Of a stretch of DNA of 46,658 nt, positions 24,001 through 42,000 are shown one piece after another. The DNA lies in the NCBI GenBank assembly GCA_963705505.1, contig CAVPJU010000009.1, forward strand, positions 1-46,658. The letters are read 5' to 3'. Numbering within the stretch: the first letter of the stretch is position 1; each line of letters begins with the position of its first letter. A program made the position numbers. The stretch is from an uncultured bacterium (GTDB lineage Bacteria; Desulfobacterota_D; UBA1144; Nemesobacterales; UBA2774).

Positions 24001-27000
24001 GGAGCCTCTCGCGGCGAACGCGCCCAACCCTCCGAAGAAGAGGGAGAGGTCTCAGGCGGCGAAGCTCGCGTTCAGGTACGGGATAGAGGAGGAGGACATA
24101 TACTCGATCAGGTACAGCAGTGAGACCGTCCCGCGGCTCGCGGTGTTCTACGGCATTTCGGAGAGGGAGATCAGGCAGATAAAACAGGCGGAGGTGGAAG
24201 AGTGAGGGGGGGCCGAGTAGGATTTTTCGTTCTTGTCATTTCGAACTTATGTGAGAAATCTGTATTTAAAGAAGTAAAAAGCAAAAAATAGATTTCTCGC
24301 GTTGCTCGAAATGACGGATAAATTAATGTACCCCCTCACCCTGTTTTTGATTTAATCGGTGTAGTTGAATAATTCTTTAAAAAATCATATAATCTTATCA
24401 ATTTAAGTGAAGGAGGAAGGTTATGATGTATACGATTAAGCCGAGCTTTAATTACTTCCGGAGTATCGCAGCGTTCTTCATTTTTACATTTATTTTTGCC
24501 GGTGTCCTGACTATACAGCCCGGGAGGAGTTATGCCCAGGTGGGTTGTGAAATCGGTATTAGCAAAGTGGCGACGCCTGATGACGGTACCGAATTCCACT
24601 TTGTAGTTACGGGTCCGGCGAGCTCGCCTGAATTCGACCTTGTCAGCGGCGACGGTAAGGGTCTTACATCTCCTGCGGGAAGTTCGGTGGACATAGTCGA
24701 GGATCCGCTGAGCGGATGGGTGCTCGATCATGTGGAATGTGGTACTGAAAATGCAGCAGTTGTAACGAATATCGAGAACGGCGTACGAATTCTCTGTCCT
24801 CCCAACGGCGGCGGCGCAGGATGTACTTTCTTCAATATATTCCAGCCGCAAGTGCCGACTCTCAGCGAGTGGGGGATGATCGCGGCAGCTGTCGGATTAG
24901 GCTGGTCGGCGTGTTCTTCGCGGTAAGGAGGAGAAGGGAAGCGAGGGCTTAGGAAATAGATGTCATTTCGAGCGCTTCGGTTCGAAATGACAGAAAATCA
25001 AAATCATTAGCCGCACGATCAAAAAGGAGGGATGGAATGACCAAAATATTACGTCCGATACTCAGCCTGATACTGGTTCTGACCGCGCTGCCGTTGGTTT
25101 TATTGTTTGCGCCTGAGACGAGCGCAGGCAACGGAATCTGCCATACGGAATTTACCCTTTCGGCTCCGGGGTCAGGTAGCTTCGTATTCCAATTCGATGG
25201 TCAGGATATCCCCGGGAGTCCTTTTTCGTTTGCCATCGCTGACGGCGGAACCGCCGGTCGAAATACACCCCTGGACACGACAACGGTCATAACGGAGGAG
25301 CCTCAGGACGGATACGTGTTTGCCGGGATCGAATGCGTAACGGGAACGGGAGTCCTCATTAATCAGATATCGGGAGGTTTCACCATAGAATGTCTGAACG
25401 TGGAGGACGATCAGGCATCCTGCGTGATAACGAATATACCGGTAGAGAGACCTGTCCCGACGCTGTCTGAGTGGGGGATGATCGCTGCTGCCGGCGGTTT
25501 GATGCTCGTGGGAGTTTTCTTCGCGGTTAAACGACTGCGAGCAAGTAAGCAGTCGGACGCCATTGGCTGACGGCAGAGAAGTGAATTGTACACTGAACTG
25601 AAGTGACTGAAGCCAAAAAGAGTAGGATGGCGGTTAATTCTTAAAACATAAATACAAAATCCCCCTTAATCCCCCTTTGCAAAGGGGGAAATTGAAAAGG
25701 AGAGTGGGGGATGATCGCGGCTGCTGCGGGATTGGGACTTATCGGAGTGTTCGTCACTCTGAAGCGGAAACGGTTACACGCGAGCGCGTAACCGGACACC
25801 ATTGGCTGATTGCTGAGCGGGAAGGGGCTTTTTCGCTTGGGAGAAAAAGTCGTAAATATTATGTCATTTCGACCAACGGGAGAAATCTAAAGAATTTCAT
25901 CATTCATAAATTTCCATTCGGGGTTGAGTTTTTCTATCAGCCTGTTCTTTTTTTCTCTTCTCCATTTCTTGATTTCTTTCTCACGACTAATTGCGTCTAT
26001 GACACTTTCGTACACTTCACAGTAAACGAGATTATAACAATAGTATTTTCCTGCGAAGCTGCTTTGATCGTCTCTATTTTCGTAATGTTCTTGAAGTCTT
26101 CTTGCGAGATTATTAGTGACACCAATGTAGAGTGTTGTTTTATTAGAGTTGGTAGTGATATAAACGTAGTAGTTGTATTTAGCCATCACAAAAATATACA
26201 ACAAGATTAGAATTCTCACATGCGTTCGAAATGACAGGGTGGGGGGTGTTCGTAATGATATTGAAATGACATATCCTTAAAGACGAGTCCCTGAACAGCC
26301 CCCAAAAAAAGTTTTTGTGAATCTCCGGTTAAGGAGTAAAATTTTTCATTCCAAATCCGGGATTCCTCTTGTAAACTTTTTCTTATGAGAAGCGAATCAA
26401 AAGTTACACTCGAAAAAGCAGCGAGGATTCTCGGCACCGATCTCACCACTCTGCTCGACGAGATTTACGAAGTCGGCATCACGGTACAGCACGACAGGGG
26501 CTCGGGCTTCGATTTCATAAGCGAAGCGGATTTCGAGGACCTGAAGCAGAGCATGAGCGTCGACAGGAATTGAACCGGGCGGACTACATTTGAGCGCTCG
26601 GGGGAGTCTTACGCGGCGCGGGCAAGGGCGCGTTTGAAATTGGCGCGCGGCACGGACGAGAGAGGTGTGCGCGTTCAGTGCTCTTCGCCCTTTCCCTTGT
26701 TCACGGGCTTGCCGGGCTCGCAGAAGAATTGGTCCGAGTGGGTTTCCTTCATCGTCGCGAGGTCGAGCGTCATTTTCTCCGCGTAGAGGACTATCGACCC
26801 TTCCTTCTCCCATTTCTCGGCGTCGGGGCACGGGGCTTCCTCCTTCGCTTTCCTTCCCGCCCTGAGCACGCGGCTATAACGGAGCGTCCCGCCCTCTATC
26901 ACGGGGTCCGCGTACCAGTCGAAATAAACGAGGCTCTTCTTTCCCGCGTCGATAATCAGGAGGCGCTTGTTGTCCTCTCCCGGCCACTCGTCCACGAACA

Positions 27001-39000: not shown

Positions 39001-42000
39001 TGCAATTACCCATTCCATTTCGTTCCTAAAAATTGTATAATAGGGGTTAATTTATTTTCGTTTAATTTAATCTGTAAGTTTTACCGATAGTTAGTTCTTC
39101 AGGAGGATCCCAGATGGCTTTAATTAATCGATATTACACGATTATTCTATTCCTGTGCGCTGTTTCCGTATTCGGCTTCATGACCGGCACGCGGGCTTCT
39201 GCGCAGGTCACTTTTTTATTCAATAAAGGCGAATACATAGCGAACCATCCGCACCAGACGATACAGACGTTCGCCGCAGGGAATGTATCGCCGGGGAGTT
39301 TCACATTTTGTCTTTCGCCTGTAGATCAATTCAGCAACGACAAGTGCTTCGTACCGGGCGACATACTGCCGGGGCTCGTATTCACAGACGACCCCGTTGG
39401 TTCGGAGCTCTTCCTTGCCGGGGTACATCTCAATGGGGCGCCAAATCCGAGGAAAGCTCTTTCTGTCGGGGGGGACCTGACCGACCTGGATATAACGTTC
39501 CCGGACGGGGGAGTCCACTCGGCGGGGATAGTTCTGGGCTGCTTCGTCGAGGGTCCCGGATGCAGCACTACGCTGGCAATCCGCCTCTTCGGTGCGGGGG
39601 ACGCGCCGCTCGGCAATACGCAAGTGCTTGTGTCCGACCGGTTCGACTCCTTCATAGGGTTCGATTCGCCTGTAACCGTGACGAGGATCGAGATCGCGGG
39701 CCCGGACTCGGGTAATACGGTAGAGGCAATTGACGAAGTGAGGTTCGAAGGGGTTTCGAGGGATATTCCCACGCTCAGCGAGTGGGGGATGATTTCCGCC
39801 GCCGCCGGATTAGGGCTGATCGGAGTGTTCTTCGCGGTGAAGAGGCGCAGGCTGCAGGCAGGCGCTTAAAAGGGATGGAAGCAAACGGAGTTATAAGACG
39901 TGATTGTAAGGGGATCCAGATTTTGAGAAGAGTTGAAAAATAAATTCTGGAGGAGGTGCTTTATGAGTATATACGGGAAGTATTTAGTCGGAGTTTTAAT
40001 TGCTTTTGTCTTTTCGGGTGTTTTATTATTTCATGCGGATAGTTCCCGCGCGCAGCAGCAGTGTACTCTGAATATAACCAAAGTTACGGAACCGGCGTCG
40101 GGGACTGTATTCTCGTTTGATTATATAGATACGAACGACACTCAGTTCGTTTTCGATCTATCAAACGGCGATACGCAAAAAATACTGATTCCGCCGCCGA
40201 CTACCATTGCCGATATAACGGAGGAGCCGGTGGAAGGGTATGTGATCACGGATATAACGTGCGATACCGAAGAAGGTATAACCGTTACGCAGATCGAGGG
40301 CGGCATCGAAGTGAGCTGCGAAAGCGCAAACGGCGTTACCGCGAATTGTACGATTACCAACACACTCAGAACGAACGTACCGACGCTCAGCGAATGGGGG
40401 ATGATTTCAGCCGCCGCCGGATTAGGCTTGATCGGAGTGTTCTTCGCGGTGAGGCGGAAGAGGGCTAGCGCGGTGTAGAATGGATATGCGGAATATATAG
40501 GTTGTAACACAAACTTCTGAAATAAAAGAAGTACTGCTAGTTTATAAATGAAAGGTGACACCCCCACCCTATCCCTCCCCCCTCCAGGGGGAGGGAATAC
40601 AAATAAAAGTGGGGGATGATAACGGCGGGGGCGGGATTGGTATTGGTTGGCGTGTTCTTCGCGCTCCGCAGGAGAAGGGCGTTTAATTCTTAAAAGAAGG
40701 AAATACAAATCCTCCCTAACCCTCCTTTTTCTAAGGAGGGAATTGAAAGGATAAAGATGAGATTCCCGATTACTCGGGAATGACAAAAGTTATGAAGCCT
40801 CTTCCCTCCGAGCGGGGGAAGGGGCTTTTTTTTTGAGGGGGTGACGGCCTCTTACGGCGGAGCGGCCCGGGACAAAAACCCGGAATATTAATGAGCTGTG
40901 AAGGGCGGAAAATAAAGATTGCATATACTTCTATTTTATAGTAAAATCGAACAATAATTCTTAAAGGATGGTAATAATGGAGGGAGCTTACAAGCCGTAT
41001 AGAAGCAGTTCCCCGATTATTCCGAATATAAAACAATATTAAATCTCAGGGGAGGACAAATATGAAGTACATAATTAAAACCTGTACATTATTATTTATC
41101 ATCACGGCGGGAGTTATGCTCATCCCGTCGCTCACCAAAAGCGCGAACGCGCAGTTCCCGTGTGCGCTGACTATTTGTAAGTCCGCTCCGGGGGCGGGGG
41201 ACCAGGGCTTTAATATCGACTTCACCGATTCCGGGGTGACGGAGACTGTAGAGCTCTTCGACGGAGGGGACTGTATTACAACTCAATTAAATTTTGACGC
41301 CGACGTCGATATAACCGAGCAGCCGACGCCGGGATGGAGACTCGTCGATGTCTTGTGCGATTTCAGCCCGGGATTTGAGTTCACCAGTATTCAGGACGGT
41401 ATAACAGCGCTCTGCACGAGTGAGAGTCTGTCCGAGACTACATGCACGTTCGTGAACTCGGCATCGGCGAACGTCCCGACTCTCAGTGAGTGGGGGATGA
41501 TCGCGGCGGCGGCGGGATTAGGCTTGGTCGGCGTGTTCTTCGCGGTGAGGCGGAAACGGTTACAAGCAAGCGCGTAATGTAGGTAATAAATATAGTGAAT
41601 GGATTCCCGGCTCGTCAGGGCGTCGCCGTGGCAAGCCCGATCGTAGTCGGGAATGACAGGAATATTAATGTACACCCCCACCCGAACCCTCCCCCTTTAC
41701 ATATGGGGAGGGAATTAAAATTGAGGACGAACGGGCTAAAGAAAGTACGAGAAAGATTTCTCGCGCCGCTCGAAATGACATGTTGGGATTGTGTCTATTC
41801 GATGAAGCGTTTGCAGTCGGGGACCTTGAAGGTTTTTCCTACGACGTCCGACTCCGAGCGGAGCATCTCCGTGAAAATGCCGTGGTAGTCGTTATCCACC
41901 TTCGCGTCCGTGACCTTGAGCACGCAGGTCGCGGAGTTGAGCGTCCCGCGCGAGCTTATGTAAACGGTGTGGTCGAACACCACGTACTCGAACGGGTTAT

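What a model noticed while it worked through the whole genome (the two positions that open the first line are those of the whole stretch)
24423..41577. Array of single-domain isopeptide-bond (CnaB pilin-like) proteins with exosortase IPTL-CTERM tails
The genome has 26 IPTL-CTERM tails for one exosortase H, 12 of them in 17 kb of C9. Eight substrates are one SpaA_4/CnaB domain with a Lys-Glu-Asn triad and four Cys between signal peptide and tail. The tail DNA is 76-92% alike between unrelated genes and also stands alone, suggesting domain swapping on a shared sorting module.
Evidence so far: Six-frame scan: 26 motifs, 3 uncalled and 3 on ORFs of 37-64 aa; DNA likeness of tails. Triad in 89 and the four Cys in 96 of 96 homologues. 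Model pLDDT 90 matches Gram-positive pilin and adhesin CnaB domains (E 1e-5 to 1e-3; calls 62,68). IPTL-CTERM in 88% of the family against 0.5% of bacteria.
(Added by a program. Inside this text positions count along the whole contig: contig position 1 is position 1 of the stretch shown here. "Call 12" and the like, gene names such as g00115 and contig names such as C1 are that model's own, and its searches are not shown. The text may have been shortened before it was handed on; [...] marks where a part breaks off. The agent that wrote the report below was given it as the finding of a first reader that could run no searches.)

Follow-up and report, generated by a model that had tools for sequence, protein, structure and literature searches.

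The report
Surface-protein array recombining through anchor tails
An uncultured bacterium keeps a row of genes for small, probably cross-linked surface proteins whose shared membrane-anchor tails act as swap points for gaining, losing and reordering genes; they are probably single anchored proteins, not pilus fibres.

Summary
The counts hold: 26 IPTL-CTERM motifs, 12 in the stated 17 kb, and one exosortase H. Eight substrates are single CnaB-fold domains (pLDDT 94). The Lys-Glu-Asn triad is in 6 of 8, and in 56 of 66 homologues. Elsewhere this domain is a two-Cys stalk repeat of fibrillar adhesins; here it stands alone with four Cys. A pilus is unlikely: no second conserved Lys, no sortase found.

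The recombination idea is supported, but what gets exchanged is the tail with its 3' flank. Tails of unrelated neighbours share 69% of silent sites; tails of orthologue-like pairs share 45%, against 58% in their domains. Tail trees group by genome, domain trees do not. The domains are conserved (dN/dS 0.12-0.16).

A scan note on this same stretch (e1-7948411) lists the three; a sequence look-up found no note on other DNA. It works like the S. aureus lpl cluster, using a sorting signal as the crossover block. Bonds, processing and function are inferred.

The parts
24423..24953 (+). SpaA_4-like single CnaB domain gene, K-E-N, 4 Cys; tail frameshifted by one base near 24900 (called ORF ends 24926; the DNA tail runs on in another frame)
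   Evidence: first gene of the array, with a 94%-identical domain in G007
25037..25570 (+). SpaA_4-like gene lacking the isopeptide Lys (L-E-N), 4 Cys, IPTL-CTERM tail
25657..25791 (+). Hairpin (type A) plus headless tail starting at the E/W codons (25702)
25887..26219 (-). GIY-YIG nuclease gene flanked by inverted hairpin repeats; Ssn-like by context, membership not tested
   Evidence: PMC11893778 passages
27508..28029 (+). SpaA_4-like gene, K-E-D, 4 Cys, tail
28165..28668 (+). SpaA_4-like gene, K-E-N, tail
28559..28772 (+). Tail plus about 100 nt of 3' flank, 91% identical to 30203-30416, although the two domains are 34% identical
28980..29763 (+). Second substrate family (CBM-like jelly-roll), split by a frameshift near 29310, tail intact
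29794..30312 (+). SpaA_4-like gene, K-E-N; the modelled protein
33934..34047 (+). 37-aa ORF that is almost only a sorting tail of a divergent type; similar mini-ORFs twice in G009
36464..37093 (-). Cys-rich protein with a divergent IPTL-CTERM tail, opposite strand
37988..38767 (+). CBM-like family gene with an altered tail
38774..38909 (+). Hairpin (type B) plus headless tail (about 38820)
39114..39869 (+). CBM-like jelly-roll protein with tail; modelled at pLDDT 89
39933..40478 (+). SpaA_4-like gene, K-E-N, tail
40559..40693 (+). Hairpin (type B) plus headless tail (40607), followed by a type A hairpin
41062..41577 (+). SpaA_4-like gene, K-E-N, tail
4034..5491 (+). Choice-of-anchor Q protein with an array-type tail; tail and flank 80% like those of 39933 over 245 nt
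16748..24205 (.). Neighbour, not shown to belong: family-wide phage-like module (CI-like repressor, O-like initiator, weak late-activator match) directly upstream of the array

Best explanation
A lineage-specific tandem family of monomeric cell-surface proteins that evolves by birth and death through recombination in the sorting tail. Protein side (inferred): each protein is exported by Sec. Its ~105-residue CnaB domain locks itself with a Lys-Asn/Asp isopeptide (Glu-catalysed) and two disulfides. Exosortase H cleaves the IPTL-CTERM tail and leaves the domain anchored, probably through a lipid, and the type II system may move it to the surface. There the acidic domains and the CBM-like paralogues form a mixed, stable coat or adhesion layer. 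DNA side (pattern shown, mechanism inferred): the ~80-nt tail is the only long sequence that all genes share, so RecA-type crossing-over and conversion happen there. This homogenises tails and 3' flanks between neighbours and adds, deletes and reorders whole genes, as in the S. aureus lpl cluster. Headless tails are empty repeat units: a few old events joined a hairpin flank to the tail core, and the units then spread by the same crossovers.
For: Fold and residues. Glu is kept in 57 of 57 domains with the Lys and lost in 7 of 9 without it (about four lineages). Adhesin repeats have 2 Cys in 1055 of 1180 repeats, against 4 Cys in 65 of 66 here. One XrtH per genome; GspD present. Silent-site identity of tails: 124/179 for adjacent genes of unrelated families, 396/701 for all adjacent pairs, 3782/8288 for non-adjacent pairs in one genome (0 of 5000 resamples reach the adjacent value), 80/176 for orthologue-like pairs whose domains share 410/703. 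Genome-label changes: tail tree 20 against 30.7 shuffled (0 of 1000), domain tree 32 against 30.8 (804 of 1000). Identity blocks start at the IPTL motif and run up to 290 nt at 91-96%. Gene number and order differ at the same locus in four genomes. One empty unit is 98% identical over 130 nt behind two unrelated heads.
Against: Tails of different genomes still share 43% of silent sites against 28% expected from codon use, so part of the likeness is old or constrained. The tail tree rests on 99 nt and many weak branches, and pairs are not independent. Only chosen loci of G003, G007 and G009 were read, and 22 of 98 tails were left out as divergent or broken. Plain homologous recombination does not explain why all headless copies start at the same codons behind three kinds of hairpin. 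Frameshifts in G000 may partly be assembly errors: an efflux gene on C5 is also split.
Confidence: 0.68

Rival explanations
1. A dedicated cassette system: a hairpin-recognising nuclease or recombinase (the array's Ssn-like GIY-YIG, the genome's only DUF559 gene at 22119, or an unknown enzyme) cuts about 10 nt behind the hairpin and joins it to the tail core, so the sorting signal doubles as an attachment site and headless tails are empty sites.
For: All 14 clear headless copies found by a profile not selected on hairpins start at model positions 14-17 behind a hairpin (3, 11); 24 copies in 7 genomes with three hairpin types; 0 of 108 full tails have such a hairpin there. The C-run 5' arm of types A and B is complementary to the G-run of the tail core (sequence). 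SsnA cuts ssDNA beside its hairpin, and such repeats cluster at membrane-protein genes in Neisseria (PMC11893778 passages).
Against: No recombinase among 78 neighbouring proteins scanned and no tyrosine recombinase match on C9 or C5. Type C hairpins lack the C-run arm. A few old junctions spread by recombination would give the same count. Shared blocks end at variable places.
Confidence: 0.15
2. An exosortase-built pilus or chain: CnaB domains as shaft, CBM-like proteins as tip, linked by XrtH transpeptidation or strand exchange.
For: The best fold matches include streptococcal pilins, among them the minor pilin FctB. Stalk-like and lectin-like domains are encoded side by side.
Against: No alignment column other than the triad has Lys in 15% or more of rows, and 37 of 66 domains have no other Lys. 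The model is a complete sandwich with first and last strands present. No sortase found in a 94%-complete genome. Predicted mature N-termini are mostly Gln (7 of 9 array genes, by eye), a poor acceptor if cyclised (own knowledge). The closest sequence relatives are monomeric adhesin repeats.
Confidence: 0.07
3. The proteins are S-layer or lattice subunits, or decorations of one.
For: The S-layer protein of Methylomirabilis lanthanidiphila carries a predicted IPTL-CTERM domain (PMC8671808 passage). The domains are very acidic (median 13 more acidic than basic residues).
Against: Dozens of paralogues at 25-45% identity with variable presence fit a single lattice poorly; the only S-layer match (SlaA/SlaB, Z 5.5) is in the background.
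Confidence: 0.07
4. Tail likeness reflects only protein constraint and codon bias after ordinary gene duplication; there is no exchange.
For: Tail amino-acid identity is 79-90% in every class of pair, and silent identity between genomes is above the codon-use baseline.
Against: Silent sites, the neighbour effect, non-coding flanks at 91-98% and the tree contrast.
Confidence: 0.03

Closest known systems
Exosortase H / IPTL-CTERM system (TIGR04177, TIGR04174, PF18203) and PEP-CTERM expansions (Haft 2006, PMC1569441, section 5 read)
   Same: One enzyme, many substrates; tripartite tail; tails cluster by species; rapid gene gain and loss; tail as an appended module (also GlyGly-CTERM, PMC3237569 passages).
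   Different: PEP-CTERM cargo is mostly unrelated and Cys-poor (0.4%); here one 4-Cys domain family (4.4% Cys) forms long tandem arrays. That paper infers duplication and loss, and a text search of it found no use of 'recombination' or 'shuffling'.
SpaA_4 (PF24514) isopeptide repeats of fibrillar adhesins (Costa 2025, PMC12617251, section 2.2 and passages read)
   Same: CnaB fold, Lys-Glu-Asn triad, disulfide. Long proteins with these repeats include some with IPTL-type tails (6 of 150 by my pattern; P0032 scores under the cut-off).
   Different: Single free-standing domain per gene; a second, lineage-specific disulfide pair; scores mostly under the Pfam cut-off.
Staphylococcus aureus lpl tandem paralogue cluster (Tsuru and Kobayashi 2008, PMC2568036, abstract and model section read)
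   Same: A conserved block in every gene is the crossover site; deletions, duplications, conversions and reordering follow; no recombinase needed.
   Different: The block is the C-terminal sorting signal, so domains stay whole; empty units with a fixed junction exist here.
Gram-positive sortase-assembled pilins (FctB, T-antigens; PDB 3klq, 6bbt, 3b2m)
   Same: Fold (Z 6.8-8.8) and intramolecular isopeptide.
   Different: No LPXTG, no pilin Lys, no sortase found; diderm host.
Ssn nucleases with NTS/SRM repeats (Chenal 2025, PMC11893778, abstract and passages read)
   Same: Small GIY-YIG gene flanked by oriented hairpin repeats, with repeats clustered at surface-protein genes.
   Different: Not shown to act on this array; the hairpins before headless tails are of other types.

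Membership tests
IPTL-CTERM substrates of exosortase H | C-terminal motif, TM helix and basic cluster matching TIGR04174 | tested here: met
   9 of 11 proteins over the cut-off, plus the 37-aa ORF; 27508 and 37988 under it
IPTL-CTERM substrates of exosortase H | Cognate XrtH in the genome | tested here: met
   97 bits against 86, with an NF041730 neighbour; one copy in 22 of 24 family genomes
IPTL-CTERM substrates of exosortase H | N-terminal signal peptide | tested here: inconclusive
   Basic-hydrophobic-AxA pattern seen by eye; no predictor run
IPTL-CTERM substrates of exosortase H | Cleavage and anchoring by XrtH | not testable with these tools
   Inferred from related sorting enzymes (PMC11980579 passages)
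SpaA_4 (PF24514) | Score over the gathering cut-off of 27.3 | tested here: inconclusive
   Window proteins 18-26 bits, one without a hit; C10 gene 31.1 and 24423 borderline; a profile of the family recovers SpaA_4 repeat proteins
CnaB-type isopeptide domains | CnaB beta-sandwich fold | tested here: met
   pLDDT 94; Foldseek E 2e-5; VIA Z 8.8, rmsd 2.9, 95 aligned
CnaB-type isopeptide domains | Lys on first strand, catalytic Glu, Asn/Asp on last strand | tested here: met
   K10 in strand 3-12, E55, N102 in strand 94-104; 7 of 8 genes counting K-E-D; not met for 25037
CnaB-type isopeptide domains | Bond actually formed | not testable with these tools
   Needs mass spectrometry or a structure; model coordinates not available
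Sortase-assembled pilins | Conserved pilin Lys for the intermolecular link | tested here: not met
   No second Lys column; 37 of 66 have no other Lys
Sortase-assembled pilins | LPXTG-type motif and a pilin sortase | tested here: not met
   Tails are IPTL-CTERM; PF04203 not found in G000, 94% complete
Integron cassette arrays | Adjacent tyrosine integrase | tested here: not met
   8 PF00589 matches in G000, none on C9 or C5; none among neighbours in relatives
Integron cassette arrays | attC sites | not tested
   No attC model run
lpl-type tandem paralogue clusters | Conserved block in each gene, with incongruent histories on its two sides | tested here: met
S-layer proteins | Abundant subunit forming a lattice | not testable with these tools
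   Needs cells

The most novel reading that the evidence does not exclude
The sorting signal is also a recombination site of an undescribed cassette system. A hairpin-guided enzyme joins hairpin flanks to the EWG codons of the tail, making empty and filled units that integrate at any tail. The family-wide domesticated phage switch and initiator directly upstream may amplify or induce the array, so that cells vary a coat of isopeptide-locked single domains.
Probability: 0.15. Interest if true: 0.85.

Novelty: new variant of a known kind. Interest (0 to 1): 0.52.

Why it matters
Tails that group by species were noted for PEP-CTERM in 2006 and put down to duplication. These arrays give DNA-level evidence that the sorting tail is itself the crossover block, which explains how such tails are homogenised and passed to unrelated proteins. 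The family offers small, compact candidate substrates for testing exosortase H chemistry. It is also a large natural set of ~105-residue domains with a predicted isopeptide and two disulfides, useful as new tag/catcher or scaffold starting points. The fixed-junction headless tails and the conserved phage-like module are unexplained and could point to a new diversification system.

Tried and rejected
Homodimer prediction: score 0.00, verdict 'no answer'; not used. Sequencing runs: no RNA holder listed, best share 0.16. Contigs of four runs laid at 88% likeness were short and shallow; tail-to-tail joints appear (25516 to 41536 in two runs of one study, 29693 to 27946 in one) but with sides of 22-43 nt, so they are not counted; the pieces listed at the 24900 frameshift stop just before it, so assembly error could not be tested. 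Headless tails as translated mini-peptides: an SD-like word precedes the ATG in 13 of 24 against 13 of 94 full tails, but synonymous/non-synonymous counts (51/32 against 389/198) do not decide, and only 11 of 24 are in register. A shared microhomology with a downstream repeat as the cause of the junction: only 3 of 31 type B hairpins are followed by that repeat start; not established. Diversifying selection on domains: rejected for three orthologue pairs. Terminase PF03237 not found in G000. ESM Atlas gave only weak HTH/zinc-ribbon leads for ORF 23507. Literature: 'IPTL-CTERM' gave 1 paper; searches combining exosortase with isopeptide/pilin/CnaB, sorting signal with gene conversion, Dadabacteria with surface terms or prophage and BoxC showed no description of this array, from listings only. 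The 2012 paper defining XrtH was seen only as a reference; supplements were not read. Searches used faulty tail filters and were replaced.
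Full report
OBSERVATION. A six-frame scan of G000 (2.88 Mb, 10 contigs, 94% complete) gives 26 IPTL-CTERM tails, 13 on C9 and 12 inside 24423-41577. There is one exosortase, XrtH, on C6. A profile of the domain finds eight unbroken copies and a split one on C5; a further, multiply frameshifted copy ends in the 'uncalled' tail at C10 182113. Gene order in relatives indicates that C5 continues C9, so the array probably runs on to C5 13.4 kb. The host is named Dadabacteria in an earlier scan note (e1-7948213, not tested); homologue records say Thermodesulfobacteriota.

THE PROTEINS. Each has a likely signal peptide (by eye), a domain of about 105 residues and the tail. A model from 66 homologues has pLDDT 94 and nine strands, with K10 on the first, E55 inside and N102 on the last. 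It matches CnaB domains: a Mobiluncus adhesin at E 2e-5 and streptococcal pilins at Z 8.6-8.8, which is only moderately above background. K-E-N is in 56 of 66, K-E-D in 1, and four Cys in 65. The Glu is kept in all 57 domains with the Lys and lost in 7 of 9 without it, as expected if the triad works as a unit. A profile search finds 5002 relatives, and the best 150 are long proteins with 5-24 matched stretches. Those repeats keep K, E and N in 93-95% but have two Cys in 1055 of 1180. The extra pair is therefore a feature of the free-standing form; the pairing C68-C98 plus C4-C87 is inferred from this and from one co-loss. SpaA_4 was already predicted to hold isopeptide and disulfide bonds (PMC12617251). 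A second substrate family, three genes in the array, folds as a CBM-like jelly-roll (pLDDT 89, Z 10.8, rmsd 3.0, 134 aligned). A GspD secretin is present.

NOT A PILUS. No column besides the triad has Lys in 15% of rows, and 37 of 66 domains have no other Lys. No sortase was found. I put a polymer at 7%.

THE ARRAY IN RELATIVES. The protein matches 23 of 24 family genomes and none of 16 from other families of the order. In G003, G007 and G009 the array lies at the same locus, but with different numbers and orders of genes and with broken members. Three orthologous domain pairs have dN/dS 0.12-0.16, like neighbouring enzymes. The paralogues are thus stable types that are gained and lost, not hypervariable antigens.

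RECOMBINATION AT THE TAIL. I compared 76 of 98 tails from G000 and chosen loci of three relatives; 22 divergent or broken tails were left out. Four-fold-degenerate identity is 0.69 (124/179) for adjacent genes of unrelated families, 0.565 for all adjacent pairs, 0.456 for non-adjacent pairs in one genome and 0.433 between genomes. For 14 orthologue-like pairs it is 0.455 in the tail against 0.583 in the domain. For adjacent paralogues it is 0.51 in the tail against 0.34 in the domain. The nearest tail lies in the same genome for 48 of 71 genes (chance 19), the nearest domain for 15 of 69. On trees of 59 genes, genome labels change 20 times for tails (shuffled 30.7, 0 of 1000) and 32 times for domains (30.8, 804 of 1000). 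Blocks of identity begin at the IPTL codons and extend into non-coding DNA: 91% over 214 nt for 28567 and 30211, and 92-96% over 196-291 nt in G007. Codon bias cannot give a neighbour effect or shared flanks. This is the lpl-cluster model (PMC2568036) with the sorting signal as the conserved block. Species-specific tail clades and fast turnover were already described for PEP-CTERM (PMC1569441).

HEADLESS TAILS. Three further tail copies in the array begin at the E/W codons, about 10 nt behind a hairpin. A profile search of fetched loci gave 11 more clear cases with the same start. With a pattern search over 33 family genomes, which does select for the hairpin arm and returned three full tails as false hits, the total is 24 in 7 genomes of 2 genera. 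The pattern found nothing in 25 of 33 genomes, many of which have other tail types. Where a previous tail is visible it lies 137-334 nt upstream. None of 108 full tails has such a hairpin there. The unit 'tail 3' half, hairpin, core' is 98% identical over 130 nt behind unrelated heads in G003, 95% over 168 nt between G007 and G009, and tandemly repeated in G003. It behaves as an empty repeat unit. Why three hairpin types joined the same codons is unexplained. I found these copies before seeing that a first-stage note on this stretch lists the three (e1-7948411).

NEIGHBOUR. Directly upstream lies a colinear phage-like module: CI-like repressor, O-like initiator and a weak late-activator match. 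It is present across six genera of the family, under purifying selection (dN/dS 0.06-0.37), with no integrase match on C9 and no terminase found. The SpaA_4 array follows it in genus g1 but not in the g3 and g4 genomes read, so a link is not shown. The initiator is interrupted in G000 and whole in G004 and G008.

MECHANISM, SHOWN AND INFERRED. Shown by sequence: motif, enzyme gene, triad, exchange of tails and flanks, turnover of genes, fixed junctions. Predicted: fold. Inferred: isopeptide and disulfide formation, XrtH cleavage and lipid anchoring, surface export, a coat or adhesion role, and RecA-type crossing-over.

VERDICT. A new variant of known parts: XrtH substrates, SpaA_4 domains and lpl-like array evolution. 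The pilin-polymer reading is unlikely. The tail-as-crossover evidence and the headless units are the new content. Interest 0.52.

Noticed in passing
window 16748-24205: Phage-like repressor/initiator/late-activator-like module conserved and colinear across six genera of the family under purifying selection, with no integrase on the contig and no terminase found: a likely domesticated phage switch of unknown role. It recalls run-off replication in Bartonella (recalled, not checked).
   Followed up: partly
window 33934-34047: 37-aa ORF that is nearly all sorting tail, with a ribosome-binding site; similar mini-ORFs twice in G009.
   Followed up: partly
G000 C10 404073 and 548882: Two 64-aa ORFs: signal peptide, about 10 residues, tail ending in a His-Gly-Cys-Cys cluster; the loci are 78% alike over 283 nt.
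   Followed up: partly
window 25862-26237: GIY-YIG gene flanked by inverted hairpin repeats, Ssn/SRM-like; three GIY-YIG matches in the genome.
   Followed up: partly
window 22119-22499: The genome's only DUF559 gene sits between type B hairpins, and DUF559 pieces lie at varying places in the phage-like module of relatives.
   Followed up: partly
window 26397-26572, 31712-31897, 37590-37769: Three related short ORFs of about 60 codons scattered through the array; a similar one follows the array in G004.
   Followed up: no
window 14725-16530: DUF5131 gene paired with a GMT-wHTH gene in a low-GC patch beside the repressor.
   Followed up: no
window 43269-46412: 1047-aa multiheme cytochrome-like protein; its upstream DNA resembles the start of contig C5, which may explain the contig break.
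   Followed up: no
window 36464-37093: Cys-rich IPTL-CTERM protein on the opposite strand with a tail type that is not homogenised with the array.
   Followed up: no
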